Part shown: positions 11,184 to 60,999 of the stretch, piece by piece
Numbering within the stretch: position 1 is the stretch's first letter
How the letters are laid out: every line of letters starts with the position of its first letter
Source: Podarcis cretensis
Taxonomy: Eukaryota
NCBI GenBank assembly: GCA_951804945.1
Contig: OX638150.1
Location: forward strand, 58,776,001 to 58,840,000
Direction of reading: 5' to 3'
DNA: 64,000 nt
Translations under genes and position numbers: made by a program
Notes under the pieces: model-generated
Database searches by the model: none
Told to the model about the DNA's origin: nothing
What the model saw: only the letters and a program-made list of their open reading frames with translations

Positions 11184-11395
11184 AAAAGCCAGAAATGGAC
11201 GAATTCACCTTGGAAAGAGTACTGGAGGAGCTGGAGACGCTGTGCTATGAGAACATGAACGTTGCCATCGAGACAGAAGAAGGTCTCGGCATAGAGTACG
11301 ATGAGGATGTTGTGTGTGACGTGTGCCGCTCACCAGAAGGAGAGGATGGCAACGAGATGGTTTTCTGTGACAAATGCAACGTCTGTGTTCACCAG
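11184..11395 (+). CDS. JADE2: JADE2 internal coding exon (end of EPC-N-like region and start of PHD1)
   Basis: ttttag|AA acceptor and CAG|gtgag donor; 212 nt, phase 1 to 0. Encodes (E)[70 protein letters not shown], matching my recollection of JADE2. Confidence 0.96.
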
Positions 11396-14300: not shown

Positions 14301-14479
14301 CACCTACAGAGGGACCTGCTAATGAGGCAATGAGCTTTTAAGGTCTAATGTATTCATTCCAGTATTGGTAGCCCACACTGATGGGCTTGAGCATTGCTGT
14401 AGCTTGTGTGGAAATGAACCTGAGGTGTTACTCTTTCTCCAAGAGTGCCTTAGTGACTTTCAGGGTGGCTTGAATTGAA

Positions 14480-14812
14480 CATGAACATAAGGAATTGCTC
14501 TTTACGGAGTCAAAATGGTCCATTTACGCTGGGGGAGGGAGAACCTGTGACTCTCCAGATATTATTGGACTCCGGCTTCCATCAGCCCCAGCCTGCATGA
14601 TCAATAGTCTGGGACAATGAGAGTTGTAGCCCAGCAAGATTGGGGTGGGGAATCTTAACCCAAGACTGTATGCTCTGACTGGAAGCATCGTTCTCCAAGG
14701 CTTCAAGCAGGTCTCAGGCTTCTTTAATCTTGCTAACTTGAAATGCAAACATACTCCCTCCCCCATTTTTTAAACCAGGAGGTGCCAGGGATTGAACCTG
14801 GGACCTGCTGTA
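14480..14812 (-). mobile_element. Old tRNA-derived SINE with CR1-like tail, interrupted by a degenerate hairpin MITE (~14527-14650)
   Basis: B-box-like gggattgaacctggg (~14788-14802), tail-like aacatgaacataagg, and an inserted ccagat..ggact..tagcccagc hairpin-family segment. Confidence 0.45.
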
Positions 14813-14854
14813 CGTGACAAAAACTATCCTCTAGAAATCCATGACTCTTTAGTA

Positions 14855-15102
14855 CAGGCATGTCCAACGTCCGTTTCGGGGGCCTAATCTGGCCCGCCGT
14901 TTGATTTAATCCAGCCCCTGTAGCAGTATATGTCCTGGGGTAAAATCCTTAAAAAAGCCCAACAGCTGCAATCCTAAAAACAGCTCAACAACCTTGGGGT
15001 CAACTTCAATCCTAAAAAGAAAGTTCAACAACTTTGGTCGGCCCTCACGCATGTTCACTTCATCAAATCTGGCCCTCTTTGAAAAAAGTTTGGGCACCCC
15101 TG
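14855..15102. mobile_element. hAT-type MITE
   Basis: TIR-like caggcatgtccaac / gtttgggcacccctg; 8-bp TSD ctttagta / ctttagga; three internal aatcct(t)aaaaa..caaca repeats. Confidence 0.75.
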
Positions 15103-15521
15103 CTTTAGGATGTTAAACTGCCTAAACTGCCACAAAAAAATGAGAGCCCAGTACCTGTGTTCATTCCTCCCATGTTTACTCCTCTCCCAGTTGTTCATTA
15201 GTAGCAAAGATATCAAGCTCTGGGATTGTCAAAACACCAGAGAGAGGAAGAGCTCTCTAATGAGATCATCATTCAGCCCCCATCGTGGGTGAGGGCCAGT
15301 TTAAGCTTAGGGATGTCCACAGTATTTAATTTTTATTTCCACTTATTAATTGCTTCCTTTCAAATATCTCAAAGCAATCTTAACAACAGTGATGTACCGT
15401 TTAAACATCATACATAATATGTGGGTGTATAATGAACCAAATCTGGAAGTTAATGCCACTTTTGGTATATTAATCATTTAAACTTTGCTGTGGAATCCTG
15501 AAAGGCGTGTTTGGAGCATGC

Positions 15522-15523
<2 letters not shown>

Positions 15524-15567
<44 letters not shown>
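15524..15567. repeat. (CA)n microsatellite
   Basis: Direct read, about 22 units. Confidence 0.97.
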
Positions 15568-15572
<5 letters not shown>

Positions 15573-15839
15573 TAACTTCTGGAATACTTAAGATTTGGAC
15601 ACTTGTGACTTGAACTCCAGTGCTTTGTAAATAATCATACTGATGGATTCTCAAAGACTAAGAAACTAAGACTGAATAATGTAAGAAGTGCAATATGTCT
15701 ACCAACAGGTTTAGCACATGGAATTAAATGCATCAGAGATAGCCACATTTAATTTGTCTGTCTTGGTTGTAGTGTATTTTACAGTGTTGTTTTCCATCCC
15801 TCATAAAAGCAACTTACTTTTTGCAATATGTTTACTTAG

Positions 15840-16007
15840 GCTTGCTATGGAATCCTGAAAGTTCCCATCGGAAATTGGCTTTGCCGAACCTGTGCCCTTG
15901 GAGTCCAGCCAAAGTGTTTACTCTGCCCAAAGAGAGGGGGAGCTCTGAAACCCACCCGGAGTGGGACAAAATGGGTCCACGTTAGCTGTGCCTTATGGAT
16001 ACCTGAA
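15840..16007 (+). CDS. JADE2: JADE2 coding exon (PHD1 end and Zn knuckle); not in ORF track
   Basis: ttacttag|GCT acceptor and GAA|gtaaga donor; 168 nt. Encodes [56 protein letters not shown]. Confidence 0.97.
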
Positions 16008-16468
16008 GTAAGATACTAAATGACTTTCTAAGTGGTAGGTAGATGTGATGTAGATGAGATATATTTGGATTTCACCATGCCAGGTACTGTCCAGAATCAT
16101 CACCTGTCATTCATGCCAAGGATTATGTTGAGCACACAGGACTTAAGGATGCCTGAAATTAAAAGCTTATTGTTGTTAAGCACTGTGATCTCTAAACAGT
16201 CCATTCAGACATTCAGAACCTTCTCCATGCAATGTGCTATAATTATGCCCAGGGCTATTCACACTACAGTTGTAACATGTATTGCAGGCATTCCATGGAT
16301 ACACCTGCAGTTTCCTGGTAGCAGTTTTCACAGTTTAATTCTGTTTCACACATTACATGGTTGATGTGTCGAATTTAGTTTGTATCAGAGCCACCCTTAG
16401 AGTTCTGTTCTTATCCTTTGAGAAGATACATGATAGCCAATAATTGGTGTGTTCTGTGTTTTGCTCAG

Positions 16469-16585
16469 GTTAGCATTGGATGCCCTGAAAAAATGGAACC
16501 CATTACGAAGATATCACATATCCCAGCAAGCAGATGGGCTTTGTCATGCAGTCTTTGCAAGGAGTGCACTGGAACATGTATTCAG
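16469..16585 (+). CDS. JADE2: JADE2 coding exon (PHD2 start)
   Basis: ttgctcag|GTT acceptor and CAG|gtaag donor; 117 nt. Encodes [39 protein letters not shown]. Confidence 0.97.
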
Positions 16586-16749
16586 GTAAGCAGTTATGTG
16601 TAGTCAAACTGTGCACCACCCATATCAGAAAGATAAAGAAATTGTTTTAATGAAATGCGTGTTGAGAATCACTGGCAAATAATATACACAAGCGACCAAA
16701 AGGCGCAACCCGTTAGGCCTTGCTGGGTGTTTATAACTTTTGTTATAAC

Positions 16750-17450
16750 TTTTGTTTATTTATTTATTTCATTTCTATACCACCTTTTTCTTCCAAGGAG
16801 CTCAAGATGGTGTACATGGGGGTGTGTCCCTGTCAGAATGCTGGGTGGTAGTTGCTCGTGAGTAACCAGGCAGGACTCTGACCTGTCTTTTACAGGTTTT
16901 ATTGTGCAGACTATATACAGTGAAGATACACAAGGTTCATGTCCGTCTTAGTCACTTAGGCAGAATCTGGGAGTTGCACCTTCCAGCTTCTCCCCCAATA
17001 TAAGAACTTAGACACCCCAGATCTCCACCTCCCCTCCTTGTGTTTCACCCCTCTGCGCAAGCGTGGCGACAGAAGTGGCGTGTGTGCCTCCTGGCCAGCC
17101 GGGCTAGGTGAGGCGCTTGGGCTCTCAACAGCATCTTCGAGCCCTCTCCTCACTTGGCTGGCCTCTTCCCTCTCTTCTCCACTGGAGGTGTGGCTTTTCC
17201 CCTTGCTGGAAGAGGAACTGCTCCTTAGAAGCATTGGAGGCTCCCTGTATCCCGATAGTGTCTCTGCCTCTCTCCCCTGTTCCAATGGCAGTCACCTGAC
17301 ACCCCCCAAAAAAATTTCATCCTCACAACAGCCCTGTGAGGTAGGTTAGGCTAAGAGATGGTGACTGGCCCAAGGTTACCCAGTGCCCTTCTAGACTGAG
17401 TGGGCGAACTCTGGTCTCCCAGGTCATAGTCCAACCTGCTAACCATTATG
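16750..17450 (-). mobile_element. Squamate tRNA-derived SINE with L2-type tail (Squam3/CORE-like), split by an LTR insertion
   Basis: Tail tttatttat..ccaaggagctcaagatgg on the left and core cctcacaacagccctgtgaggtagg..ggcccaaggttaccc on the right. The same family is on + at ~61000-61137. Confidence 0.65.
16831..17301 (-). mobile_element. Probable solo LTR (Gypsy/ERV-type), 471 bp
   Basis: TG...CA ends with perfect 6-bp inverted termini TGTCAG / CTGACA; minus-strand AATAAA about 70 nt from the end; cleanly interrupts a SINE. TSD ambiguous (C-run). Confidence 0.65.
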
Positions 17451-18866
17451 TTACTTTACATTGACCTCACTGGCTTTTATCTCATGTGCAGCTTTTAGTT
17501 GGAAGGGAAAGGAGAGGGACTCCTCCTCCTCTCCTCTCCCAGTGTCTCCATGGAGTCAAGGGGGTTTGTGTGTAAATTATTTCCCTTCCTGTCAGGTTTT
17601 GCAGGAGGTAGCAGCAGAATGTTGGTCTTTTTTATCTTTAGTTCCCAGGTAACAAGAAATGCCACTGAATACAGTCAAGTGTTCTTTTCCACTTCTTTTA
17701 TCACAGTGTTTTATCTTATCCAAGCTCACTTTGATCTCTAGGAAGATTACCGAAGTGTTGATCTCTGGGTCCAAAGGGAGGATCTGTCAAAGATTGTTTG
17801 TATGTTGAGGCTGCAACTGTCGTGAGACAGCTATCTGGTGGAAGGAAAGTCATGTGCTATATGAACAGAAAGTGTGAAGCCACCACCATAACGTTTGGGG
17901 CATTGTAAGGGAGAAATTTTAAAGCAATCTCTTTTAGCCTGAAGTGAAAGCTCTCACACACGTTTCATTAAATCTTTCCAACATTTGATTCAATTCCATT
18001 TGCGATGGCTCTGGGTGGATCTGCTTATTCACCCTGCCAGATGGAGATATTCTGTCATAATGGCAACTGCTTTTGAAGAACGGAAGGGCAGGGAAACGAG
18101 ACGGCTACACTTGGCAGCGTTGGGTGGGGGGGTAGGAAGAAAAGGAAGAATTCAGTTTTCTCTGAGACTTCATCCTCTTAGCTCTGGCTCGCGTGTTAGT
18201 TTTGAAATGCTCTGAGCTGAGTGGATTTGCATGAAAGGTCACCTGAAATGGAAAACAGGGTTTTATTGTCTCCTTTGCTGACATCCCACATTTCATAAGT
18301 CTTCATAAGACTGACAGTTGAGCTTTTGTTGGCGCTGGCCTCGTAAGAGGGAGAACATTTTCACCAAAAGAAGGAATGAAAGAAATATGTAGATGATTCA
18401 TTTGTTTAAACGTTTAAGCAATGACTAAGCATCAAACTGAAACATAGGGGAGGGGGAATTAGAATTCAGATCTGCCCCCACTTTCATCACATTAGGATTG
18501 CAAATCTCATTATTTGTGTTGATGTAGCATCGCCATCTGGGTTTGCTTATGCAGGTGAAATTTAGCATAGAAGACTCCACAATAGCTTTATAAAATAGCT
18601 TTTGGCCAAGGGCGGGGGGTAACTTTCCTGAAACCTTCCAGGCAAAGGGATCAAAATTCATGCAGCTCAGTGAAAGTGACAATAGCCAGGGACTTAGTGG
18701 AGAAAAGTAATGGAGTAGGTAATGGAGTAATGGGGTTGCTAGGAATTGTGTTACTTATTTTTATAATCGTATACAAATCCTTCCTCCTTTACTTGTATGA
18801 TTATATTACTATAACCCACCCTGGAACCTTATGGTGAAGGGCAGATAAGAACTATTATAAATACAT

Positions 18867-19190
18867 TTGTTGTTGTTATTAAATTTATTACCCACCCTTC
18901 GCCAACAGGTCTTGGGGCAAGTTTCAACAATCTAAAATTAAGAATTAAAAACAGTTAAAACAGTTTTCAGCCATAGGAGTATGTTGGGCACACAGGCAAA
19001 GCTGCATCTTGAGCATTCTCTGAACACACTATAATGAAGCCACATGCACCTCTGTAAGAGGGAATTTAGGGGCAGACACAGAGAATGCCCTCTCCAGGGA
19101 GGTGGTGTTACCAAGAAGGCCGCCTCTGCTGATTTTAACATCTGAGAAGTGCTGTAGGGAAGGAGGTGGTCTGGGAGATAGTACCTTTAG
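18867..19190 (-). mobile_element. L2-like LINE 3' fragment
   Basis: (TTG)n/ttattaaatttatta tail and the gg..gttaccaagaaggcc motif, shared with the fragment at 32008-32230. Confidence 0.45.
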
Positions 19191-19213
19191 GCAATGCAAC
19201 ATCAGTGCAACTA

Positions 19214-19439
19214 CAGTGGTACCTCGGGTTAAGTACTTAATTCGTTCCAGAGGTCCGTTCTTAACCTGAAGCTGTTCTTAACCTGAAGCACCACTTTAGC
19301 TAATGAGGCCTCCTGCTGCCGCTGTGCCGCCGGAGCACGATTTCTGTTCTCATCCTGAAGCAAAGTTCTTAACCTGAGGTAATATTTCTGGGTTAGCGGA
19401 GTCTGTAACCTGAAGCGCATGTAACCCGAGGTACCACTG
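19214..19439. mobile_element. Tc1/mariner (Tigger/pogo-like) MITE
   Basis: Perfect 18-bp TIR cagtggtacctcgggtta / taacccgaggtaccactg; TA TSD; internal ttaacctgaag repeats. Confidence 0.9.
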
Positions 19440-22400
19440 TACGCTGGTTTAGAGGTTCAACAGTGATACAGAGGATCATTCACAATAACCACGTTGACGC
19501 TTATATGACTTTGGTTTTCCAAGGGGCAGGGATGTGCAAGAGTACAGTACTAAACAATTCCCTTTTTGAAAAGACTAAGTCTACAACCCTATACAGTGGT
19601 ACATTAACACAATTCCCAACTCTTTCTACCTTTCAGTATATTCTTCTCCCCACTCTGCTGTATGGTTTTATTCTGCTAGCTGGGCTGGAGGAGGGGAATA
19701 ATGCATCAATAACGTCTTCATTATCACTTTAATGCAAGGTTCTTTGGTAGCTACTGCTGAGCAGGTACTTTTCGTTGTTGACCTGTCAGCTCAGCTTGCT
19801 AATTATTTCCTATTTGCATTTCGGGCAGAGTCCCTGACAACTGCTACTTGCCATCTGTCAGAGGAAACCCAGGATGGGTGGCATTCTGTTTGTTTTATCT
19901 GTAAGGTAGCGCGGATAATCTTTCCTTCATAAAAGGGCACTGTGTAGGCTGTTGTTCTAGCAAAAGTCATAAACAATTTAATAATGATATTAATACTGTT
20001 TGTGACGCAAATAGGGAGGGGAGGGGAGAAACCGAGATGCATTTATTTCAGTAGCTTAGCTAAGCCGGAGAGGTCCTTGCCCAGCTTTCATCTCAGCACT
20101 GCAGCTAGTTGTGTGCACAACAGCACAAAGGATCTTTCCAATCACTCATTTTAAAGTACCCCCAGATGTTACTCCAATATAAACACAATTGGCTCCATCA
20201 GTAGCTATCTAGCTATGTATGCAGTAAAATTACAGCTTTGGCTACTGGACAAGAAAACTCAATCAAAGCTGTTTACTGCTGGCAAAAGCCTGTAACCTCA
20301 AAATGCAATAACACTTAGGAAAGTGACTCCGCTGCATCTTTTCAACATAGTCTCCCATCCCCAGCCCAGGTATTTATATCAGGCAGGCCTATGATAAAAA
20401 CCGCATGATAGCAGAACAGCATTGCTTTACAAATCTGGGCACTGATACTGTGCATCCAGCAAAATGAATGAAAACTCAATACTCCGATTCTTAGGTCATG
20501 TCTGCGTCAGTGCATCCCACCACACCTTATCCCTGCATGGAATGCAGTTTAAAATATTTGATTAGATCTGCTGTTTAGGGGCTATCAGATCACCACCCTG
20601 GACAGATTTCTGTTAGTAGCTCCACAAGTGGCAAGAGTGTTCCATAGCACTGTTATGACTCTTTTGCCCTCCTTAAGATCCTGCAAATATGAGGACCAAA
20701 CCTGACATCTCAGTATCAGACCTCTTTGTTTAACCCTAGGTCTGCCCCAGTCACAGGGATACGGGTCTGCCTTTTTAGAGGAAAGGGAGATGCTCAGGTG
20801 AGGGGGAAGTGAACTCTCTTTGCCCCAACCTCTTACATTCCCTTAGCATCCTCTCACCAGATGTTTTTCCTGGAGCTCAGCAGAGGAGAAAAGCACCTTA
20901 AGGGACCAGTGGGGCAGAGATAAAGCTGCACAGAGTGTGCTTTTAAAACTGAACATAAAATTGTTTTTCCTCTTCCCTGAAATGCCCTCACACTCAATTG
21001 AGTACGTGTAGTATCCCGAAACGCTTCTCAAATCCTTCAGGAAGTGTCCCCTTGCGTTAATGCGATCATTCAAGCTGGAGCAACCATGGTTCTTAACAAA
21101 TATATTGAACTATGTAAACTGCTCAGTGTGGTGTCTTCAGCAATAAGGTCTTCAGAACAGCTCCTTATTGCTGTTTAACTGGCCATTAGCAGCTGGAATA
21201 GACTGATTTCTTATGGGTTATGGCTTAAATAATTACCTGACACTCAGAGCTATTAAAAAACAGTTAATGAATAGTGGGTGGATCCATGAGGAGACAGCAG
21301 AGTTACATACAGCTAGCTGGGGAATGTGTTATATTGGGTAGGAAATGGCACTTCAGATGTTGCTGCCTGGGGGAGGAGGGGGACAGAACAAATTAGATAG
21401 GGAGGGCTTTAATAAAATTGTTTGATTTTTTTTTCTTTAAAAGAACTGTTGACAGCTATTTAGCGACTGCACTGAGCGTTAATCAGTTAATTTTTATGTT
21501 ACTAGCTTGCCAAAAGCTTGAGGCTCACTTTTTTGTTCTCTTTCTTTTTAATATATAATTAGAGGACATATATCAAAGGGGAAGATACTGTTAAAGGTCC
21601 AGTCTTTCCAGGGGCATTGCAAGCCCCCAAGAGTGTAGATTTATTCATGAACTTGTGACCCAGTCTGCGACCCAAAAATCACATTAGCTAAGGTAGTTCA
21701 AAAAGAACAGAACAATGTGGTAGAAACTCTGGTCTAACCACCACCCTCATAAACACACAATAATATAATATGAGTGTTTCAGAAGGGCAAATGTATGCTT
21801 CGGCACCATTAGTACTTTTGTTGCTCTGTTTTATAGGCAAAGGCAAAATCTCAACCAGAATTATTTGGGGAGTGGGGGAGAGTCTCTAAAGTCCATTTTC
21901 TTTCTACCGCTACTGCATTTTAGTACAAAACAAAAAGCAACCCACTCATTTATCAGAACTTCTCCATACCTTTCTCCTTTTATATTAGGGTTGCACAGCC
22001 TGTGACTCTCATCATCACTCACCATTAGCCTTGCTGACTGGGGTGGATGTTTGTTGTGGCCTCAGAACATATTATGGAGGGTCACAGGTTCCTTTTCCCT
22101 GTTTTGGCACATGGACTCAGCTCTACTCAAAGGGTTAAACATATTACTTAGTTTAACAGGAGATTACTTTCTATGTCAGCGATGTTTGTGTTATATATAA
22201 ATACCTTGGGTATTTACCTCCAGGAAACCAGTAGAACTATGTTTACCACTTTGAGCTCCTTGGAGGAAAGCTGGTGTATAAATGTAATAAAGTATCCTCA
22301 ATTTTTTTCGCAGTGGCAAAAAAAAAAAAAAAAGTCCTATTCGCCATTCAGACATTACAAGTAAAATGATTTTCCCCCAACACCTTTTTACTGAATTCCG

Positions 22401-23057
22401 TTTTCCTTGCCCTTCCCTGTGTCACAGTGAAAAAAGGATTCTTCAGTGTTGGAAACTGGTACATGTGGGATAGGTTTAAATGGGTAGGAGAGGATATATT
22501 GATTGCAGTTTATCCCACCAGGCCCCCATGCGTGTGGGTTAACAGAGTTTGAAAATCCCATCTTTGGCACCCCAATTAAAAGAATAGGAATTAGTCTGCA
22601 GGGCCTCCTTTGGAGAAAGTTCAACTAAAAAGTAAGCTGGCTTCCCCCTTCTTACCTCACTTAACAAAGAATCAGGCAACAACTTGTAATGTAAGTTTAC
22701 AAATAAGATTTACCTACTTTATAATCATGCTTTGCTTCACAGCAACAGTAGCAGCAAAAGCCCCATACCTAGAGCGGCAGCAAGCAGGGCCATGACTGCA
22801 TCCAGCACTAATCAAAGGAAGAGAGAAGAGAGAGGAACAGGAAGTACTATATGCTGCTTCCTCTCCAGGAGAGGAGGGGAAATGATGTAACTCACAGCTC
22901 TCTCTACCAGTTGTATTTCTATGGTCTGAGTAGACACTCAGCAATTGCCTGTCAGCAGTACAGCTCTATGGTATTAGCCCCTTCTCATGCTAACTAGCAA
23001 GGAATATGCATTAGTTACGTTTGGCTGCTAATCTCCCACAGTTCCATAGTTCATGTT

Positions 23058-23172
23058 TGTTGTTGTTGTTGTTGTTTAGTCGTTTAGTCGTGTCCGACTT
23101 CGTGACCCCATGGACCAGAGCACGCCAGGCACGCCTGTCTTCCACTGCCTCCTGCAGTTTGGTCAGACTCAT
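23058..23172 (-). mobile_element. RTE/BovB LINE 3' end, 5'-truncated
   Basis: (GTT)n tail followed by agtcgtgtccgacttcgtgaccccatggac, typical of the BovB 3' terminus; 12-bp TSD atagttcatgtt / atagtttatgtt. Confidence 0.8.
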
Positions 23173-23475
23173 ATAGTTTATGTTACCCCATGCTAATTAG
23201 TATTATATCATAGCTAGCTGACCTTTTGACCAGCACACCGGCTTCAAGTATCAATAACTTTCAAAATGTAGTAAGCAGGGCAAAGGCATGGCCCTTGTGT
23301 GCTCTGAATAATTGGTCACCAGGGGGAAATATGGAGAGGAGAAATAAAAATCCTGCATCCTTCTTTTCTAATTTGATACTTATCAGGATGTTAATGTTTG
23401 TGACATCCTACAGAAATTGCATTAGCCACCTTGGAATCCTTTTGGATGAAAGGCAGTGTAAAAATAAACAAGCCA

Positions 23476-23476
<1 letters not shown>

Positions 23477-23528
<52 letters not shown>
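23477..23528. repeat. (TAGA)13 microsatellite
   Basis: Direct read. Confidence 0.97.
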
Positions 23529-24227
23529 ATGACCTGTACTTCCTCTGGGATGCAGCTTGTTAATGTGAAATCAGTGCACTCTTCCTACCCTTCCCACCCA
23601 GAGGAGAGGCCACCTGGACAAGTTTTAAGAAGAGCAAAGAAAACAGCAGATCTCATCTTCACCCCATTCCACATAGCACCTCTTCCTGGAAGGGCTTTCC
23701 TTCTATTTTTGCTAGAACAAGGCTTCTGAGTGTAATAGTGGAAATATAATAAAAAAACTGGGAAAACTTGGCCTGGCCATGCAAAATACCTGACCATCAC
23801 ACTGAGCCAATTTGGTGGGACACAGGATCAGCTGTGCTGTATAATTAAATATCTCCTCAGCAAAATCAAGTAGACAGATCCCATGAGGAATGTTTACATG
23901 AAGGAAAAACAGCAAGAACATAAACCTAGTGTGTAAGCAAGCTGTAGTGTAGTGGATAGAAATGTACTGTAGAAGATGAATAGTGAGAGAGGGCATTATG
24001 GAGGGGTATTTTTCCATCTCCTCAAGAAAAGTGAGGGGTCTGAACAGAGAGTAATGGGGATGTGGTACTTTCCACCATCACCCCCCATTAATTTTACTGC
24101 TAGTATTAATTACGGCAGGAATTTTTTTGCTGCTGGTACTCTTGTAAAAGTGATCCTAGTTAACCATGAAATGGTTTTACAAGAATACTCAGGTCTTCAC
24201 TCTGCTTTCTCCCCCTATCTGTTGCAG

Positions 24228-24689
24228 TGTTCCATGCCTTCCTGCATCACAGCCTTCCACGTAACATGCGCCTTTGAACGGAATCTGGACATGCGGACAC
24301 TTTTAGCAGAGAACGATGAGGTGAAGTTCAAGTCCTTCTGTCTTGAGCACAGCAGTGGTGCCACTAAGCCACCAGACGAAGCACGGACGGATGCAGATCA
24401 AGGCAAGCTGGATATGGAAAAAGTAACGCTGAGGAAACAGAAGCTCCAACAGTTGGAGGAAGACTTCTATGATCTTGTGAAGCCCTCTGAAGTGGCTGAG
24501 AACCTTGACTTGACTGAGGGGCTAGTTGATTTTGTCTATCAGTACTGGAAATTAAAGAGGAAAGCCAATTACAACAAGCCTCTAATGATGCCCAAAACAG
24601 ATGAGGTGGACAACTTGGCTCAGCAAGAGCAAGATGTGCTGTACCGACGCTTGAAGCTCTTCACACACCTCAGGCAAGATCTTGAAAGG
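24228..24689 (+). CDS. JADE2: JADE2 coding exon (PHD2 end and downstream helical region)
   Basis: gttgcag|TGT acceptor and AGG|gtgagt donor; 462 nt. Encodes [16 protein letters not shown]...[18 protein letters not shown]...[11 protein letters not shown]. Confidence 0.97.
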
Positions 24690-25355
24690 GTGAGTAGAAT
24701 TACAGGTTTTATGAAATGTTCTGCTGCTCTACCGTTTCTAGTAATTCTTTAACTCCAGTGGCCTGATTATCCTAACAATCACTGAAACTTCACAGCGCCC
24801 AGGCATAGCTTCTGTTCTGATCGCTATCTGTATATTCATTTTCGTTACGATTTTTACTCAAGGAGTTCCATATTTTTCATTTGCCTGTCTAGATCATCCT
24901 TTTGTAAAGATAACGAGAAAGGCCCCAGCCTTCCTCTTTACCTTGGAGCTAGGGAGAAGGCAGAATTTGTCCCCACAGCTGAGTGAGCTTCCGAGGGTTC
25001 AGTACAGCAGTGGAGAAAATCCCCATCCTCTCTCCAACTCAGAGAGGAAGGTTTGGCTGGCACATGGATCCTCTTGGTCACATGGGACCAAAATGAGCAC
25101 CAAACTTTTCCTCCTGTTCCTTGGGTAGCTTGTGTGACAGAGTGAAGGACTCAAAGCACTTTTGTCGGTCGGCACCAAAACAAGTCCCTGCTTCTCTTCC
25201 CAGGTGACAAATGAGGGCTGCAGTCCTATGCATATTTACCAGGGTTAGGCCGTAATGAACACAATCAAACTTTACTTCCATGTAAACCAAAAGTTGTGGC
25301 TCCATTCTTACTCCAAGCAAGCACAAAAATCAAATGGAAAAATGGGGGTAGGAAT

Positions 25356-29186: not shown

Positions 29187-29981
29187 GTTCCCGTGAGCAG
29201 ATTGATTCTTGTGTTATTATTCAGGATTAGCTGTCCATGTAGGAACTACTTAATCCTGTGAGTGCTTAACCAAACTTTTAGCCTGATCCTACCTATGTTT
29301 ATTCACAACTCAGTCCCACTGAGTTCGGTAGGCTTTCCTCCCAAAGAAGTATGCATATGATTATATCCCTAAAAAGTAATTGTGCAGTAGGAGCCAAATC
29401 CAGGAGCTGTGTATTATTGAAGCATTGTATTGAATCCAGGATTCGGGCTACTGCACTCATGCAGGACCTTTGTTGCTTTGGCAATGGGAGAGCACAGTCA
29501 GAGCTGCTGTGAATAAAATTATAAATAAAACTTGCAATTATATCCTCATAAGATGATTGTTTTTAGATTTGGTGCACAATATGCATTTTACCACTCTACT
29601 CAAACCCTTTTAAAACCTTAATGAGCATGTATCAGTAAAGTCAAGTCCTCTGCTTTTCCATATTTAGTTCCCTTTGAACTGTTACAGCACACATTCATTT
29701 CAGGAGGGTGTTCTTTTTTTCTGGCTAATTAGGACTTATTGAGGAATTAGTCATATTTTCAATTCACTTTTGATTGCTTTTACTTCCAAACTGACATCAT
29801 ATTTTGTATTCATGTTACTCCAGGAAGCCTTTATTTAAAAAAAAAAAAAACAAGAAAGAAAGAAAGAAAAAACCAAAACCACCCATTCACAGATGTGACA
29901 GTTAAAGTATTCCACTGCCCTGTTTCTTTGATTCTTTTGCCCCTCACATTATTGACCTTGATAAACCAAAATTAAGAAACT

Positions 29982-30330
29982 GACGCGGGTGGTGCTGTGG
30001 GTTAAACCACAGAGCCTAGGACTTGCCCATCAGAAGGTTGGCGGTTCGAATCCCCGCGATGGGGTGAGCTCCCGTTGCTCGGTCCCTGCTTCTGCCAACC
30101 TAGCAGTTTGAAAGCACGTCAAAGTGCAAGTAGATAAATAGGTACTGCTCCGGTGGGAAGGTAAACGGTGTTTCCGTGCGCTGCTCTGGTTCGCCAGAAG
30201 CGGCTTAGTCATGCTGGCCACATGACCTGGAAGCTATACGCTGGCTCCCTCAGCCATAAAGCGAGATGAGCGCTGCAACCCCAGAGTCAGTCACGACTGG
30301 ACCTAATGGTCAGGGGTCCCTTTACCTTTT
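29982..30330 (+). mobile_element. Sauria SINE, near full-length
   Basis: Closely similar to 7813-8165; no clear TSD. Confidence 0.9.
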
Positions 30331-31445
30331 TTATCCGCTACCCCAGTCTAGATTCCATTGTGTCTTAGGGTGGTAAAAAGCCCCCATGCAAAGCCATGTG
30401 TGTTTTGTCAGAAAAAGGGCACCTGCATGCTTCACTGGGTCAGTTTTTGCTTGCAAAACTGCATGCGCATTTTTTTACCTGGATATGTTAATATAGATAA
30501 AGCACCTCAGTGGCATAAAATCAATAGATTTCAGGGGTATTTTTTTCCCCACCAAACACCTTTCAGAAGCAGAAACAACCATAAATTGTAATACCTTAAA
30601 TTTTGGGACATCAGTTACTATTGTGCAGGTGACAGTCTCCTAGAAGGTCTACTCTGACATGAACACTGCAGTGAAAATGCACCCAGTCTGGATGCAATTT
30701 TCTTAACTGCACCCAGAGAAAAGAATAATTGTTTGAGTGCAGGGTTTGTCCTTAATTACATAAGGAACAGGTCCTTGTTTTTATTTGTCTTGCTGGTTAT
30801 TTACAATTAAGATCCAGGAAGCTCACTGCCCAAAGTCTCACTCACATTAATTCATCAGTGAAGACAGAAGAAACCCAGATAATTGGGCAAGTGTAAATTC
30901 ATGGTGTTTCTGTCACCATATAGCTTTTTAAAAAAAGCCTCTGACAAGCAAACAATTCTGTTTACTATTTTGGTTCCAGCTAGCAGAGATTAATGGTGAG
31001 GGGCAGATCAAATGTGATGTTAGAGATACACAGGCTCCTAAATACTTGCACTGTTTTGTAAAAGCTTACCAAAGGGATGCATAGTCATGGATATCCAAGG
31101 CTTACTAAAGAGATGGATATTCATCCCCCCCCCAAAAAAGCGAGGGGGAAGAATGAAAAATGTTATATGAATATCATTCTTTGTCTGTATAAATTACTGG
31201 AAATATTGTTGAGGACATGGTACATGAAGCACTCCAGTGAGAATTTACTTTTCCTCCCTACTTTCATGCCATCCCACAGTTTTACTTCAGAAATGCAATG
31301 CTGTTATGAGGGGGATTTGTTTATTTATACACACATAGCCTAATCCAGTCAATTGGCCTACAAACATGGAATCAAGCTTCCACATGCACAGTCCCTAGTT
31401 GTAAGAAGATTCATAAACACAAGTAGATGTAAACAACAACAACTA

Positions 31446-32005
31446 CCGTATTTTTCGCCCTATAGGACACACTTTTTCCCCTCCAAAAATGAAGGGGAAA
31501 TGTGTGTGCGTCCTATGGGGTGAATGCAGGCTTCAGGAAGCTATCCGCAAGGCTTGCAGGCAGCAGCCCGAAGCCCGGGGCGTGCTGCACAGCACGCCCC
31601 GGGCTTCGGATCCCCGACCTGGTTTGGAGGCTGGCGGCGGGGAGAAATGCACTTCCCGCTGTCCCGTGATCTGGTCTGAAGGCTGGTGGCAGGGAGAAGC
31701 GCGTTTCTCCCCGCCGCCAGCTCCACAAGTTCGGGGGACAGCAGAGAGGCGGAGTGCCGCCATCCCGCTGTTCCCCGACCTGGTTTGGGCTTCATGCAGA
31801 TATCCGCAAGCGTGGGAGCCCGGCGGGAAGTCGCGCCGGTCTCCCAAGGCTTGCGGAGAGCTGCCTGTTCTGGGGTCGGGTGAAGCTCGGGCGTCCTCCA
31901 CCCCAGCCCCGCGCCTGGGGGGGGAATAATTTTTTTTCTTTATCCTCCCCCAAAAAATTAGGTGCATCCTATGGGCTGGTGCGTCCTATGGGGCGAAAAA
32001 TACGG
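31446..32005. mobile_element. Tc1/mariner superfamily (Tc2/pogo-like) MITE with GC/CpG-rich interior
   Basis: TIR ccgtatttttcgccctataggac / gtcctatggggcgaaaaatacgg; TA TSD. Confidence 0.85.
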
Positions 32006-43871: not shown

Positions 43872-45346
43872 GTAAGTTTGGCTTCAAAAAAGCTGCTTTA
43901 GCTTTTAAATGCTTTAAAAATGTTGCCCATGGAGCTTATGGGTGGGAAGTTTAACGATTGCCCCATTCAGAAGCTTTTATTCACATGTTAAGTGATCATG
44001 TGAACAGGACTGCACTGAATAGCTATGCCCCAGGCATGTGGGCACTGGCCAGCAAGGACTCAGAGTATCACATGTGCAGCATGCCCAATGGCAGAGACTG
44101 GCAGATGGAGTCTTGAGTCCACACAACCTGGAACTCTTGATTGTTATTGGTATTGTAGAACAATTCATACATTAAAGAAAGAAGGTTCTACTGTTAGTGA
44201 AGTAATCTTCAATATGACTCCTTTAACAGGGCTGTTTGTCAGCCAGTGACGCTGAGGCCCTTAGGTGTTACCGCCTGCTGATCCTGAGATAAATTCTGGT
44301 CTCAGTTTACTAGTTAACTATACCAAACTGATTCTTTATGAGGATGAGGAAGTACGAATGTATTTGTGAACCCCATGTGTTGGCTATTTAGATCATAAAG
44401 AATCCACTCACTCACTCACTCACTCCATGGGAGTTCATCCAAGTCTAGGAGTTTCCATCTGTGTAGAGGAGGGATCCCTGACCTTTTTGGACTAGGCACT
44501 TCTGGAAATCTAAGAAACAGTTGTGGGCACCACAGTATACCCATTTCACAGAAGAAAAGCAAGCTGTTCTCAGGTACTCCCCCTCAAACAACAAACAAAA
44601 CAGCCGCCCACACTCCAAAACAAATAAAACAGAAACAGCCAAAAAAGAGAGTGGGGGGAAAAACCCAGACAAGGAAAAGGACCCCCAACAAACTGACAAA
44701 GCACCACCATGTGGGGCCGAGAGGAAATCTGGAGAAAGCAAGGATGCCTTGTATCCTGCCCAGTGCCACCCATGGTTAAAAGGGGGGGGGGAGTAAACAT
44801 GTCAAATTGAAAATACTAAGAAATTGGAAGGGTGCCATTATGTATGCAGGTGCCGTGTTGGAGACCCTAGGTTGTAAAGCTAATGATTCTCCTCTTGTTC
44901 ACTCCTAGCTATAGAGTTTCATGTTACTATATCAGGGCTTTGTATCCAGCCATGATAAAATATTTGATGCAAATAGGTGGCCGTGTGATTCACATTCAGG
45001 CTTCCCCCGACTGAACAATCTACTTAAGTGTTGTATTTCAGAAAGATGACACAATGATATGTAATGTCACATTTTGCCTTGGTCTTTCTGAAACTTCTGT
45101 CTGCCTAATTACTGACCCAAATTTATTTGTTTGTTTGTTTGTTTGTTTCCGTAGCCACCCTGTACCGTAAAGCCCCATGCTGAGTTACAACAATGTAATA
45201 TACAATTATAAAAATTAGATTAAAATGTTACAATTATAAACAAATAAAACTGTTCTAATTGGAATAGAATTTACCTTTGTGACGGCGGTTAAATGTTTAT
45301 TGAATCCTAAGGCGTCCTGTTCTTTTTCTACTCCTTTTTGGTTTAG

Positions 45347-46239
45347 GTTTGTCCACTTCCTTTCCCATTGATGGGACCTTCTTCAACAGCTGGCTGGCTC
45401 AATCTGTACAGATCACCACTGAGAACATGGCAATGAGCGAGTGGTCCTTGAACAATGACCACCATGAAGACACCACCCCAGGCCTTTCTGAGGAACTTCT
45501 GCAAGACGAAGAGACCTTGCTGAGTTTCATGATGGATCATTCCCTGAAGTCCCCGTTGAAGCACAGTGACACCGCAAAGAAAGCTAGGAGCAAAGTGCGA
45601 ACGCACACAAAGAAGAAAGTGGCAAGGAACGGCTTGAGTACCATCTTTAAGAGACAAGAGGACTCACATCACTGGACTAACGTGAGCTCTTTGCCAGATA
45701 GCACCACCAAGTCCTCACTCCATGATTTAAGAAACAGCAAAGCAGAGAAAGGTGGGGACAAACTTCAGCCAGAGCGCAAGGTGATGTGCGAAGTGAAAAA
45801 GTCGGCTAAGAAGGGCTCTTCACACCCCACAACTCTTCCAAAAGCAAATGATTCACATGCCTCCCAGAGCCTGATAAGTAACCTGAGCAATGAGAAGGAG
45901 GAACCACTGAAATATACTCTATCTTCTGATCCCAAACCCCTGGTTAAAGTGCCTGATTCAGTAGGTAGTCCGAAAACAGTAGTGAGGTTCAGATTACCAA
46001 AAGAAGGCAGAGGGACTCGGAGATCCCAAAGCGAGAAGCCTGCTGAGCTGGTTAATGGACCTTCAGGAAGTGAGAGGTCGAAAGTTATCTTACACCCTTT
46101 TGACAATGAGACTGATGGCTACTTCTCAGATGCAGAAATGAGTGACTCTGACACAGAATCTGGTAGTGGCAGAGGGCACCATAGCCAATTAGATTCAGGA
46201 AATGAGGATAATTTCAGAATGAGCATTTTGGCATCCTAA
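45347..46239 (+). CDS. JADE2: JADE2 terminal coding exon to stop codon
   Basis: gtttag|GT acceptor. Encodes (G)LSTSFPIDGTFFNSWLAQSVQITTENMAMSEW...DNETDGYFSDAEMSDSD...RMSILAS then TAA. Both ends are diagnostic of JADE2 rather than JADE1/3. Confidence 0.96.
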
Positions 46240-51733: not shown

Positions 51734-51865
51734 CAGGCATGGGCAAACTTGGCCCTCCAGATGTTTTTGGACTACAACTCCCATCATCCCTAACAGGACC
51801 AGTGGTCAGGGATGATGGGAATTGTAGTCCCAAAACATCTGGAGGGCCGAGTTTGCCTGTGCCTG
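51734..51865. mobile_element. Palindromic hAT-derived MITE (hairpin family)
   Basis: About 58-bp inverted arms (51734-51791 / 51808-51865) with few mismatches. Degenerate relatives at ~14527, ~21990, ~26810, ~34770 and ~36815. Confidence 0.8.
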
Positions 51866-56563: not shown

Positions 56564-56951
56564 GGTAAAAAAGGTAAAGGTAATGGACCTCTGGATGGTT
56601 AAATCCAGCCAAAGGCAACTATGGGGTGCGGCACTCATCTTGCTTCAGGTCAAGGGAGCTGGCATTTGTCCACAGACAGTTTTCCAGGTCACGTGGCCAG
56701 CATGACTAAACTGCTTCTGGCACAACAGAACACTGTGATGGAAAACAGAGTGCACAGAAATGCCATTTACCTTCCCACCACAGTGGTACCTATTTATTTA
56801 CTTGCACTCACATGCTTTTGAACCGATAGGTTGGCAGGAGCAGGGACTGAGCAACAGGCGCTCACTCCGTCACGAGGATTTGAACAACCAACCTTCTGAT
56901 TGGCAAGCCCGAGAGACTCAGTGGTTTAGACCACAATGCCACCCGCGTCCC
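56564..56951 (-). mobile_element. Sauria SINE, older third variant
   Basis: (AAAGGT) tail, head ..gccacccgcgtccc; TSD ttcaaagaaa (56554-56563 / 56956-56965); more diverged than the other copies. Confidence 0.88.
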
Positions 56952-57189
56952 TTTTTTCAAAGAAAACCAACTCAGGGTATATTCAGGAACCACATCTCAT
57001 CTCTCAGACGTACGTGTGTGTGTGTCTGTGTGTATGTGTGTATTACAGCCCCAAACCCAGAGCTGTTGAGTACATAGAAGTGGGGCTCTGAAGATAGTGA
57101 TGTGTGGTTCTCATTAAGGAAGCTACAATCTGGAACATAATTCAAGAAGGTGATGGCCTTTCCCCAGACTTCAGAGGGCAAGAGGGATA

Positions 57190-57499
57190 AAAGGTAAAGG
57201 TAAAGGTACCCCTGCCCATACGGGCCAGTCTTGACAGACTCTGGGGTTGTGCGCCCATCTCACTTAAGAGGCCAGGGGCCAGCGCTGTCCGGAGACACTT
57301 CCGGGTCACGTGGGCAGTGTGACATCGCTGCTCTGGTCAGAGCCAGAGCCAGAGCCAGAGCCGCACACGGAAACGCCGTTTACCTTCCCGCTGGTAAGTG
57401 GTCCCTATTTATCTACTTGCACCCGGAGGTGCTTTCGAACTGCTAGGTTGGCAGGCGCTGGGACCGAGCAGCGGGAGCGCACCCCGCCGCAGGGATTCG
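57190..57499 (-). mobile_element. Sauria SINE, second subfamily, 5'-truncated
   Basis: Nearly identical to 8966-9260; 10-bp TSD aagagggata (57180-57189 / 57500-57509). Confidence 0.92.
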
Positions 57500-57728
57500 A
57501 AGAGGGATAGAAACAGTGATTAAGCAATAGGGATAGAAACAGTGATTAAGCAATATTATCCCTAACTGTACCCCTTTACTTAATTTACAGATGAATAGCT
57601 CCTCCCGCACTCTAAGGAGGGAAATAATTATTGCAAGAGGCCCAACTACTGTCCATGGATGATCTAAACCCCATCAGCAAGGAGTGGGTGGGAGCAAAGT
57701 ATACAGAGAGGCATTGTACATGTGCCTA

Positions 57729-57880: not shown

Positions 57881-59814
57881 TCACATGTAGCAGAATGCAA
57901 GTGATATGGCGGGGCTGTGTGACTATCCTGACCTCCATCCCACTGGGACACTGCAGCAAAGCAGGATGAGGAGAGGCGGAGCATGGTGGCAGCAAGGTCA
58001 GTGCTGTGGAAATGCAGCGGCAGAAGTGCCAGGGTTGGCTCTGCCATCATGTTTCCACCTCACACTGCCTGCTGCGGTTCATCCATACATATGTTCTCGC
58101 AATATGCAGTCCCTGCTTACGCACACATAAAACCAAACCACCTGTTGTAATGACAGGCTTTTTGATAGCAAACGTAAGACTGGATGATGGTCTTGTCACA
58201 ACAAGATATCATAAGAGGCAGCATTAACTAGCCCTCCAGACGTGATGGAAGATTATTTTCTCTCTCGTTGCATCTTTCACTACATCAACAACATTTCTAG
58301 GTTTTGGAAGGCTTCTGAAATGCAAGCACAAATGTTTGTGCTTCACAGGAAAGTTCCCCTGCTGAAAAGAAAACAAACAAAAGCCAGACAACAGCTTTGT
58401 TTACAGCTTTATATGAGCCTGGCAATGGTTGCATAGAGTAGCCTATGGGGTTGTGCACAGCATTACACTGACTAATTCAGGAGTACCCAGCAAAAATTAA
58501 ATGGAATAAAATCCAGCTTTGGTTAATGCTTCTAGAAAGGAAGTGTTTGAATAAAAGGAGTGAGTGTGGGTCCATTTCACCAATGAATATGAAAAATGCT
58601 GAACTTACAAATTTAAAAGGAGTGGCACAAGATATTTTATACCACAGCTGATTCAATACTACTGTAAAAGCAATATGTAACCTAAATGTGAAAAAGATGG
58701 TGCTGTACTTGTGCATAAAGGCATTTGATTTTGCACATATGCATTATAAGATCTAGCCTTCCCAAATTAATCCATTTAGGGCAGCCATGCTGGGTACTAA
58801 AATAGCGCATTTCTCATGGATGTCCATGTAGGGATGTAAAACGAGGTGCACCTGCTGCAATTTGCAAGCGATGATTTGAAAACAAATCTACTATTAAGTG
58901 GCAGCGAACCAAGGGAAATATCCCGTCTGGGGGAAGCAAAGACCCTGGCTCACAGACATGTGCTACAACTTAAGCTTTTGTTGGAGTCTGCCAATTCTGC
59001 CAGGAGCGACAGAAAGGAATCAGGTTTTGATTGCATGCAAATGTTCAGGGGTACCTTTCTGAATGTGACAATTTGCAAGTCTATCATCTCCTAAGGCACA
59101 AGGCTTAATGCCCTTGCTGTTTGTCAATGGGAAGCAGCATCTCAATACAGAGCCCAGGTGCGTCCTTTGGAATACTTTAATAAATGCATATAGATATCAT
59201 CAGATGGGAGAGTAACAAGGACAAATAATAATCAGCACACAGGAGTGGATTTGCTCATTCATTGCAGGTGGCGATGTTTTCTCCTCCAGCAATGGAGGGG
59301 GAGGCGTAGATGGAATGCAAGGGTTATCTGCAGCAAAAGAATGTGAGGGAAGTCAGCCAATGGCTACGTCGGGAACAGGAATAATCCTGAGATGAGAACC
59401 AACAGCTTTTGCTGTTTGTGGCTGTTTGCAGAGAATGACTCAGCAAGCAATGCTTGTGTCATTCAGGCAGATCACCTGCAGACAGAAAGGGCTCTGGAGA
59501 GAGATTAGGACTGGCACAGAGAGGCAAATAAGGGAGGAAGGGGGCTTGCAGGAAAGAACGAAAGGGAACTCGCATCCAGGAGCTCAAGACATACTATCAG
59601 GAGTTTAATTAACTTGACAGAGCTGGAAGCAGCAGCAAGGAAAACAGCACAGCCGAGATGTATGGGTGCCAAGGATCCAGATGGATCCTTGCCGGAAGAA
59701 TACATTCACTCCTTTGGCAGCTGCAGTACATGATAATCCTGCACTGAGGAGGTGGAGAAGTTGGTCATTCGGTGGCCTTGTCTCTTGATGGTCTTAGTAA
59801 GAGAATTCAGACTA

Positions 59815-59995
59815 CAGTGGTGCCCCGCAAGACGAATGCCTCGCAAGACGAAAAATCCGCTAGACGAAAGGGTTTTCCGTTTTTCGAGGCGCTTTGCAAG
59901 ACGAATTTCCCTATGGGCTTGCTTCGCAAGACGAAAAAACCGCTAGACGAAGAGAATCGCGGAACGGATTCTTTTCGTCTTGCGAGGCACCACTG
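59815..59995. mobile_element. Tc1/mariner (Tigger-like) MITE
   Basis: TIR cagtggtgccccgcaagacgaa / ttcgtcttgcgaggcaccactg; TA TSD. Confidence 0.88.
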
Positions 59996-60660
59996 TAACA
60001 GACAGGCTAGGGTGGTGTTGACCTGAATCCCCAGCTTACCTGGCAAAAATTCCCACTGGTGTAAACAGTATGTCAAATCCAAAGTTCAACAGTCAGAAAA
60101 CATGGTCCGGGGGGTCAATAAAAGTAAGCAAAGTCTGAAGTCCAGCAGTCAGGAAACACAGTCCAGAATCAAACCCCAAGTGCAGTCCTGTAGAAGTCCT
60201 GGAGCAGCCAAAATGAGGTCCCTCAACATGGGACCCTTCAGCTCTGCTTCCCTTTTATACTTTGCATGTGGATTGCAGCATCTGGGCTTGATAAGACCTG
60301 TTTCAAGCCCATTCCAGCTTTGGACTCAAACCCTGTCAGTGTTTGTAAAAAGCAAAAAAAAGAGGGAAAGGCTTCTGACCTCCCTTTGTCTCTTCAGCCT
60401 GGTCCTTGGACCCTTGTCTGCATAAAAGAGTCCACGAGAATATCCTTGCAGAGTTTTATTCTTAAAAGTCTTTGTGCAAAACACGACTGAACAACTATAC
60501 ACACCAGCACCAATCAACCAACCAACCCAAACACCAGCCTCAGCACCAAACTAACATTTCTCACTATACAGATAGGTAGCCGTGTTGGTCTGCCATAGTC
60601 AAAACAAAATAAAAAAATTCCTTCCAGTAGCACCTTAAAGACCAACTAAGTTAGTTCTTG

Positions 60661-60698
60661 GTATGAGCTTTCGTGTGCATGCACACTTCTTCAGATAC
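60661..60698 (-). ncRNA. Minimal type I hammerhead ribozyme motif (mirror copy)
   Basis: Exact reverse complement of 60711-60748. Confidence 0.7.
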
Positions 60699-60710
60699 TT
60701 CTGTTTCAGT

Positions 60711-60748
60711 GTATCTGAAGAAGTGTGCATGCACACGAAAGCTCATAC
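60711..60748 (+). ncRNA. Minimal type I hammerhead ribozyme motif
   Basis: GUAU-CUGAAGA-A-GUGUGC(AU)GCACAC-GAAA-GC-UC^AUAC: helix I GUAU/AUAC, core CUGANGA and GAAA, 6-bp helix II, palindromic AGCU in place of helix III. Confidence 0.7.
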
Positions 60749-60999
60749 CAAGAACTAACTTAGTTGGTCTTTAAGGTGCTACTGGAAGGAATTTTTTTAT
60801 TTCTCACTATATATATACAGCCTGCTGCAAGCCGCTGAGTCATGCTGACCCAGCTTTATTCGCATTAAAAAAACAGCAGCCATTTTAGCCGTGACAAACC
60901 CCTCCTCCCAGAGCCAGCGAGCCCCTCCTGGGCTGTGGGGCCTTGCCTTCCTCAGCCTGCCACTGCTCTCTATGCTTCACACAACCATGCAGCTCATCA

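What the first reader, a model, noticed from the sequence alone, without database searches (positions are those of the whole stretch)
60661..60748. Back-to-back minimal hammerhead ribozymes in a Penelope-like insertion
Seen: 60711-60748 reads GUAU CUGAAGA A GUGUGC-AU-GCACAC GAAA GC UC AUAC. This gives a 4-bp helix I, the CUGANGA and GAAA core (with one extra A before helix II), a 6-bp helix II, and a self-complementary AGCU in place of helix III. The predicted cut is after C60744 (CUC triplet). An exact mirror copy lies on the minus strand at 60661-60698, so transcription either way yields one motif. Established: Penelope-like retroelements carry minimal type I hammerheads with a palindromic helix III, thought to cleave as dimers. 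Inference: this is a catalytic RNA relic. In a transcript spanning both arms the long hairpin would sequester it, whereas a transcript starting in the spacer would free it.
Basis: partly seen in the sequence, partly recalled or inferred. Interest (0 to 1): 0.75.

Follow-up and report, generated by a model that had tools for sequence, protein, structure and literature searches.

The report
Penelope hairpin stub with passenger hammerheads
This is a 230-base mirror-image insertion from a very abundant repeat family, likely left by a Penelope-type jumping gene; each half carries the small self-cutting RNA motif already described for such elements, which here is predicted to be an idle passenger rather than a switch.

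Summary
Two identical minimal type I hammerhead motifs sit head-to-head (60711-60748 +, 60661-60698 -); 0 of 300 shuffles give one as good. They are the inner ends of a 230-bp insertion (60569-60798): 92-nt perfect arms, a 13-bp target duplication, an empty copy of the target in another run, and a tail on one arm only. The repeat is very abundant in all five runs laid. This matches the published inverted pseudo-LTR plus one-sided tail of Penelope-like elements, and a published turtle motif is a close relative with compensatory changes. No RT/GIY-YIG gene could be tied to this family. Corrections: helix II is 5 bp plus a 4-nt loop inside a 14-nt palindrome. The spacer is native upstream sequence that pairs with the catalytic core, so a start in the spacer mostly does not free the motif. 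The mirror copy lies on the other strand and cannot be the dimer partner. Cleavage is untested. The scan noted the same kind of stub in other genomes. Verdict: new member of a known kind.

The parts
60556..60568 (.). Left copy of the 13-bp target-site duplication (ATTTCTCACTATA); its last 2 nt also match the element's tail end
   Evidence: Exact 13-nt match to 60799-60811; 0 of 3000 random window pairs at similar spacing shared 12 nt or more
60569..60698 (-). Left arm: 130-nt copy of the element's end repeat, starting exactly at the first base of helix I and carrying the tail
   Evidence: family-wide loose ends pile up at 60567 and 60698 in 4 of 4 runs
60567..60601 (-). 35-nt one-sided tail, between the two commonest 3' end points of the family
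   Evidence: Loose-end piles at 60567 and 60602 in 4 of 4 runs; length; 30-40 bp one-sided tail described in PMC8557442 and PMC11167929
60661..60698 (-). Minimal type I hammerhead motif, predicted cut after 60665
60699..60710 (+). Spacer = native upstream sequence of the right arm; pairs with the catalytic core; pyrimidine-rich and ending in CAG-T, like a splice acceptor (untested)
   Evidence: Its reverse complement leads the loose-end consensus at 60698 in 2 of 4 runs; folds
60711..60748 (+). Minimal type I hammerhead motif: helix I 60711-14/60745-48, core 60715-21, extra A 60722, helix II 60723-27/60732-36, GAAA 60737-40, palindromic AGCU 60740-43, predicted cut after C60744
60699..60798 (+). 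Right arm: 100 nt (104 with the 4-nt overlap into the duplication), without the tail
60799..60811 (.). Right copy of the target-site duplication; its first 4 nt (ATTT) also match the element
   Evidence: empty-site contig in run X15
60330..60930 (.). Unidentified middle-copy host repeat that the element interrupts (approximate ends)
   Evidence: Depth about 100-500 times the adjacent unique flank on both sides in X1; one X15 contig joins the right flank at 60810 to 30 letters matching 60536-60565 at 29 of 30 (compared by eye)

Best explanation
This is a 230-bp head-to-head insertion with a 13-bp target duplication, likely made by a Penelope-like retrotransposon, and its two hammerheads are predicted to be passengers that came with the element's end repeat. 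Shown: the arms, the duplication, the one-sided tail, the empty target, the family's abundance and its fixed end points. Inferred, origin: the element's RT/GIY-YIG protein nicked both strands of an AT-rich target 13 nt apart. Each 3' end then primed a short cDNA on element RNA, one from the end of the tail (2-nt match to the target) and one about 40 nt further in (4-nt match). Both stopped at or just above the start of helix I and were joined head-to-head. Inferred, ribozyme: in the parent element the motif would cut after C60744 only as a dimer of two same-strand copies paired through AGCU, probably with help from the element's protein. At this locus it is predicted to be inactive, because the second copy is antisense, a read-through RNA forms a 92-bp hairpin, and flanking element sequence pairs with the core.
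For: Target duplication and empty-site contig. Summed depth 4-5 orders of magnitude above the unique flank in 4 of 4 runs of four organisms, with mixed flanks beyond shared end points (depth is not a copy number). 35-nt tail on one arm only, as in PMC8557442 (passages) and PMC3846280 (passages: inverted pLTRs with 8-10 bp duplications and a 5' palindrome). The tail ends 114 nt after an ATG inside helix II, against RT starts 111-118 nt into the ORF of anole Poseidon, whose ORF begins at stem II; that protein cleaves and extends both strands and does not need its hammerhead for insertion (PMC11167929). The turtle motif in Fig. S3 of PMC4209133 has the same core and AGCU, with helix I GCAU/AUGC against GUAU/AUAC and helix II GUGGG/CCCAC against GUGUG/CACAC (compared by eye). 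Contigs L006 and L007 carry the same architecture next to an RT + GIY-YIG ORF, L007 with an inverted second copy. Folding. A simple fold-back cannot build this copy: the spacer continues the right arm, and the right arm lacks the tail that the left arm has (sequence).
Against: No Penelope ORF lies in the window (tblastn with two PLE proteins). A protein search with the arm's reading frame found 3 short proteins without RT. The turtle row is not marked as mapped to a PLE ORF in that paper. L006 and L007 are other families from other organisms. Twin priming is inferred from one locus; PMC3846280 prefers self-priming on an antisense template and PMC8557442 ascribes the tail to endonuclease resolution. 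Fold predictions are equilibrium estimates without protein or co-transcriptional folding. One other locus has an arm starting exactly after the predicted cut, so cleaved RNA may sometimes be copied.
Confidence: 0.85

Rival explanations
1. The whole hairpin is a non-autonomous element (SINE- or MITE-like, or a retrozyme-like unit) that is copied as one piece.
For: Arms are identical at five family-variable sites (product of the letter frequencies about 0.15). Depth over 60704-60710 next to the left arm is several times single-copy in 4 of 4 runs (99-1314), so a few loci may share this junction. Some head-to-tail joints of the unit exist (table 5c).
Against: That depth is more than 1000-fold below the arms. 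Listed inverted joints differ from each other (60614/60691, 60625/60699, 60632/60674, 60664/60698) and most loose ends at 60698/60711 run into mixed flanks. Arms are unequal and the duplication is 13 bp. This locus has no tandem units.
Confidence: 0.07
2. Same Penelope origin, but built by one cDNA folding back on the 5' palindrome, with one end trimmed afterwards.
For: Identical arms; a palindrome at the junction that also folds as DNA; PMC3846280 reads such junction palindromes as self-priming.
Against: The spacer belongs to the tail-less arm, so that arm's tail would have to be made and then removed. The base at the turn does not pair (A against A; read from the sequence). Both ends show short matches to the target, as priming would leave.
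Confidence: 0.25
3. The locus works as a conditional ribozyme switch: off in read-through RNA, on when transcription starts in the spacer.
For: Core intact in both arms. Short RNAs starting at 60707-60711 and ending at 60760 form helix I with probability 0.74-0.86.
Against: A 12-nt spacer with no shown promoter. Helix I is lost once the RNA reaches 60811. No partner in cis. Published monomers do not cleave and dimers cleave weakly (PMC4209133). The insertion is young and sits inside another repeat. G12-to-A, which should kill catalysis, makes up 18% of depth in X1, so many copies tolerate loss.
Confidence: 0.03
4. The hairpin matters as double-stranded RNA (microRNA precursor or source of silencing RNAs) rather than as a ribozyme.
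For: Perfect 92-bp stem; 18 Rfam microRNA models score on it.
Against: All 18 are below their gathering scores and reflect generic hairpin shape. No transcription of this locus was shown.
Confidence: 0.04

Closest known systems
Minimal type I hammerheads of metazoan Penelope-like elements (Cervera and De la Pena 2014, PMC4209133; main text parts 1-2 of 4 and supplement parts 1-2 of 3 read), nearest row Chrysemys picta in Fig. S3
   Same: CUGAAGA core, extra A before helix II, G10.1-C11.1, palindromic AGCU without helix III, 4-bp helix I, 5-bp helix II; pairs of motifs on opposite strands 100-700 bp apart are mentioned there
   Different: Cut-site base C rather than U; helix II is itself a 14-nt palindrome; the two motifs are only 12 nt apart; no lizard row seen in the figure text
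Inverted-pLTR insertions of endonuclease-bearing PLEs (PMC8557442, PMC3846280, PMC2377424; passages read)
   Same: Head-to-head 5'-truncated copies, 30-40 nt tail at one end, variable target duplication, palindrome at the junction
   Different: No ORF at all: both arms are shorter than 135 nt
Poseidon_Ac (PAc) of the green anole (Frangieh et al. 2024, PMC11167929; parts 1-2 of 4 read; GenBank supplement unreadable)
   Same: Hammerhead overlapping a start codon, tail end about 114 nt downstream, AT-rich target beginning with ATT
   Different: Sequence not compared; the frame from the ATG here meets a stop after 9 codons and is not shown to be the ORF; clade of this family not determined
Animal non-LTR retrozymes (bioRxiv 10.64898/2026.07.22.740005; part 1 of 5 and passages read)
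   Same: Non-coding, hammerhead-bearing, derived from PLE end repeats
   Different: Those are tandem same-strand units able to dimerise in cis; this locus is inverted

Membership tests
PLE minimal type I hammerhead | Catalytic core CUGANGA ... GAAA ... UH | tested here: met
   60715-60721, 60737-60740, U60743 C60744
PLE minimal type I hammerhead | Extra nucleotide between 9 and 10.1, and a G10.1-C11.1 pair | tested here: met
   A60722; G60723-C60736; features listed in PMC4209133
PLE minimal type I hammerhead | No helix III; palindromic 15.2-16.2 | tested here: met
   AGCU at 60740-60743
PLE minimal type I hammerhead | Helices I and II kept by compensatory change | tested here: met
   One double change in each helix against the turtle row (by eye). 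One search counts 5 of 9 pairs with double changes, but its 4 added rows were picked from 11 matches for having both helices, so that count is not independent
PLE minimal type I hammerhead | Self-cleavage as a dimer | not testable with these tools
   Needs in vitro assay; only contigs were available, which cannot show RNA ends
Rfam hammerhead families (canonical models) | Score at or near the family threshold | tested here: not met
   No hammerhead family at gathering score or up to E=10; the published minimal motifs were found with a descriptor instead
Endonuclease-bearing Penelope-like element insertion | Head-to-head inverted, 5'-truncated end repeats | tested here: met
Endonuclease-bearing Penelope-like element insertion | 30-40 nt tail at one end only | tested here: met
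   35 nt between end-point piles at 60567 and 60602; present on the left arm only
Endonuclease-bearing Penelope-like element insertion | Variable target duplication in an AT-rich site | tested here: met
   13 bp; empty copy of the target in X15; 70% AT against 58% for the window
Endonuclease-bearing Penelope-like element insertion | RT + GIY-YIG ORF belonging to this repeat family | tested here: inconclusive
   None in the window or among 3 protein hits; the genome is not held. Shown only for other families with the same motif architecture (L006, L007)
Endonuclease-bearing Penelope-like element insertion | Clade (Poseidon, Neptune or other) by RT phylogeny | not tested
   No ORF available
Non-LTR retrozyme | Two or more tandem same-strand units, each with a hammerhead | tested here: not met
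   One motif per strand here; a few tandem joints exist elsewhere in the family (table 5c)
MicroRNA precursor (Rfam) | Gathering score of a family | tested here: not met
   18 of 18 hits below threshold

The most novel reading that the evidence does not exclude
These stubs are a population-scale record of the unsolved Penelope insertion reaction: a protein dimer primes two cDNAs from the two ends of one staggered cut, at the two internal start sites that define the tail, on a capped RNA that begins at the first base of the hammerhead. The ribozyme would then remove the capped leader and start codon, acting as an off-switch on the element's own mRNA. Hints here: 5' ends pile up at helix I's first G in 4 of 4 DNA-type runs; 4 of 4 listed joints landing on 60711 have a non-native G just before it; one locus has an arm beginning exactly after the predicted cut.
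Probability: 0.25. Interest if true: 0.55.

Novelty: new member of a known kind. Interest (0 to 1): 0.2.

Why it matters
As a single locus it is ordinary: one young copy among a very large family, with a motif and an anatomy already in print. Its value is as a clean specimen. Intact target duplication, unequal arms and fixed end points let one test how Penelope-like elements prime and resolve their cDNA, and what their hammerhead is for; both are still open according to PMC11167929 and PMC8557442. It also warns that the palindromic helix II can mislead in vitro dimer assays.

Tried and rejected
Own-genome search: no genome held, so no copy list or full-length element. Rfam: no hammerhead hit. 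Pattern scans: 0 matches in viral contigs and 0 in prokaryote genomes. A 15-nt tail pattern gave 77 viral loci, none matching the unit beyond 23 nt, taken as chance. The metagenome scan gave 11 matches in 10 loci; 4 matches (L005, L006, L007 twice) form both helices and the other 7 were dropped; none belongs to this family. No other copy in the window. Protein search with the arm's frame: 3 of 3 hits are short ORFs running through other copies, without RT. No RNA holder listed for the locus; X15 is only guessed to be RNA, so expression is untested. An argument for purifying selection from the variant tables was dropped: one search listed only the cut-site base as variable within the motif, but one search showed G12-to-A at 18% of X1 depth, which one search missed. 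Whether this exact insertion is present in the other organisms could not be told, since no listed piece spans the locus. The bacterial promoter scan is irrelevant to a eukaryote. A motif search for a neighbouring host gene found nothing near the element; the nearest recognised coding exons (PHD-like zinc finger at 23973-24749) are far upstream. Lunse et al. 2017 is not held; I saw it only as cited in PMC6765202. Paper searches with four short sequence words gave 2 unrelated papers, the supplement of PMC8557442 gave no match to the family, and 'Penelope' + 'twin priming' listed 3 papers, none on PLE insertion by title or abstract start. Subscription journals and Repbase/Dfam were not searchable, so absence from print is not shown.

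Full report
Observation. The sequence at 60711-60748 is as reported and has an exact mirror at 60661-60698; the identity extends to 92 nt on each side of a 12-nt spacer. A minimal-hammerhead descriptor finds only these two motifs in the window; 2 of 300 dinucleotide shuffles gave any hit and 0 of 300 a hit of equal helix lengths. The predicted cut after C60744 follows standard hammerhead numbering (established knowledge). Helix II is better drawn as 5 bp with a CAUG loop; the sixth pair has probability 0 in the fold. Rfam has no model that catches the motif.

The larger object. The motifs are the inner ends of an insertion at 60569-60798. ATTTCTCACTATA occurs at 60556-60568 and 60799-60811; 0 of 3000 random window pairs at like spacing shared 12 nt or more. 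One contig of run X15 joins the right flank at 60810 to letters matching 60536-60565 at 29 of 30 positions, with no element between. It is 7 letters different over 82, so it is an empty copy of the host repeat, not necessarily the orthologous site. The left arm (minus strand) is 130 nt and carries a tail that the right arm lacks; the right arm has 12 extra nt upstream.

The family. Laying contigs of four runs from four organisms on 60200-60710 gave 10,257-24,091 laid records per run. Summed depth over the arm was 2-8 million against roughly 15-200 on unique flank. The tool warns that this is not a copy number, but the repeat is plainly very abundant. The best-supported loose ends (24 shown, 952 not) pile up at 60567, 60602 and 60623 on the 3' side and at 60698 on the 5' side in all four runs. 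The 60567-60602 interval is 35 nt. In two runs the loose-end consensus at 60698 starts with the reverse complement of the spacer, so the spacer is native upstream sequence. On the right arm, 5' loose ends in X1 pile at 60709-60711 (12 shown, 179 not). None of the shown rows lies at the cut site.

Comparison with known elements. PMC4209133 defines the minimal hammerhead by the extra base before helix II, G10.1-C11.1 and a palindrome in place of helix III. It reports motif pairs on opposite strands, no cleavage by monomers and weak cleavage by dimers. Its turtle row differs from this motif by one compensatory change in each helix (by eye), but that row is not marked as mapped to a PLE ORF. PMC8557442, PMC3846280 and PMC2377424 (passages) describe inverted 5'-truncated copies, the one-sided 30-40 bp tail and 8-10 bp duplications. 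PMC11167929 shows that anole Poseidon protein cuts and extends both strands at AT-rich sites, starts cDNA at two internal sites that define the tail, and does not need its hammerhead, which cleaves only with protein. Here an ATG inside helix II lies 114 nt from the tail end, close to the 111-118 nt reported there, but its frame meets a stop after 9 codons and is not shown to be the ORF. Independent contigs L006 and L007 carry the same motif architecture just after an ORF whose full-length relatives have RT and a GIY-YIG-like domain (RVT_1 E about 1e-10; GIY-YIG just under Pfam's cut-off); L007 also has an inverted second copy. They are other families. For this family no ORF was found and the genome is not held, so the Penelope assignment rests on motif and anatomy. 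That the host is a reptile is my inference from the turtle relative and from recalled repeat types; it comes from no call.

Mechanism of origin (inferred). Both arms point outward, with their 3' ends at the two copies of the duplication and short matches to the target (2 nt left, 4 nt right). This is what two target-primed cDNAs from a 13-nt staggered cut would leave. A simple fold-back fails because the spacer continues the tail-less arm, which could not template the other arm's tail; fold-back followed by trimming remains possible and is closer to the readings in PMC3846280 and PMC8557442. The arms agree at five family-variable sites (product of frequencies 0.15), which fits either route. 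I took up the twin-priming reading after seeing earlier scan notes and checked it only against this locus.

Ribozyme function (inferred). A read-through RNA folds at -183 kcal/mol against -121 with the hammerhead enforced. A start in the spacer mostly does not rescue it: the spacer pairs with the core, and helix I has probability at most 0.04 for + strand RNAs reaching 60811 or 60900. It reaches 0.74-0.86 only for short RNAs starting at 60707-60711 and ending at 60760. For the - strand through the tail it is 0.07-0.11 for starts 60703-60710 and 0.38-0.71 for starts 60702-60698. The mirror copy is antisense and cannot supply helix III. Two free copies are predicted to prefer a 14-bp duplex through the palindromic helix II (-30.6) over the double hammerhead (-11.1). 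Among family copies the cut-site base is U in about 6-20% of depth, which the NUH rule allows, and G12 is A in 18% of X1 depth and 2% of X15 depth, which should inactivate. The variant tables of the two calls disagree on G12, so I draw no conclusion on selection.

Hints for the novel case. All 4 listed joints that land on 60711 have a G just before it where the native base is T (table 5c; 12 rows shown, 6 not). In one search, 2 of 3 listed joints at 60698 agree, one of them the same joint. This would fit copying of a 5' cap, but the junction at this locus has A. One inverted joint, seen at single-locus depth in 4 of 4 runs, has an arm beginning at 60664, the first base after the predicted cut (1 of 4 inverted joints shown; a like joint). 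These are small counts from truncated tables.

Verdict. A real, young, Penelope-type hairpin stub whose hammerheads belong to a described class and are most likely idle here. New member of a known kind; interest 0.2. The scan has noted the same kind of element in other genomes and nothing near this place. The GenBank supplement of PMC11167929 and Lunse et al. 2017 could not be read and may contain this family's motif.

Noticed in passing
window 59813-59997: MITE-like element: 24-nt inverted ends (TACAGTGG...CCACTGTA) with internal GCAAGACGAA repeats
   Followed up: no
window 60330-60555 and 60812-60930: Unidentified middle-copy repeat that hosts the insertion; an uninterrupted copy exists in run X15
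   Followed up: partly
window 60699-60709 (+) and 60584-60611 (-): Two pyrimidine-rich stretches ending in CAG, like splice acceptors, one just before helix I and one in the tail; in D. virilis Penelope an intron ends at helix I (PMC4209133)
   Followed up: no
window 60723-60736: Helix II is a perfect 14-nt palindrome, predicted to form a strong intermolecular duplex (-25 kcal/mol)
   Followed up: partly
family joints at 60664/60698 and 60707/60745: Another locus with one arm starting at the first base after the predicted hammerhead cut
   Followed up: partly
window 6674-6996, 7813-8166, 8965-9327, 29974-30336, 56566-56957, 57185-57502: Six copies of a roughly 320-360 bp SINE-like repeat, 73-93% alike
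   Followed up: no
window 31568-31609 and 51734-51865: Two other self-complementary stretches (42 nt and 132 nt), unrelated to the hammerhead element
   Followed up: no
window 23973-24749 and 45304-46236 (+): Coding exons of a PHD-like zinc-finger gene (Pfam zf-HC5HC2H); JADE family by recall
   Followed up: partly
L007 244-1417: 5'-truncated Penelope-like copy with RT/GIY-YIG remnant and inverted hammerhead-bearing end repeats in a metagenome contig; L006 is a related 3' end
   Followed up: yes
L005 26-65 (-): Complete minimal hammerhead (4-bp helix I, 6-bp helix II) near a 104-nt imperfect inverted repeat, no PLE ORF detected
   Followed up: partly
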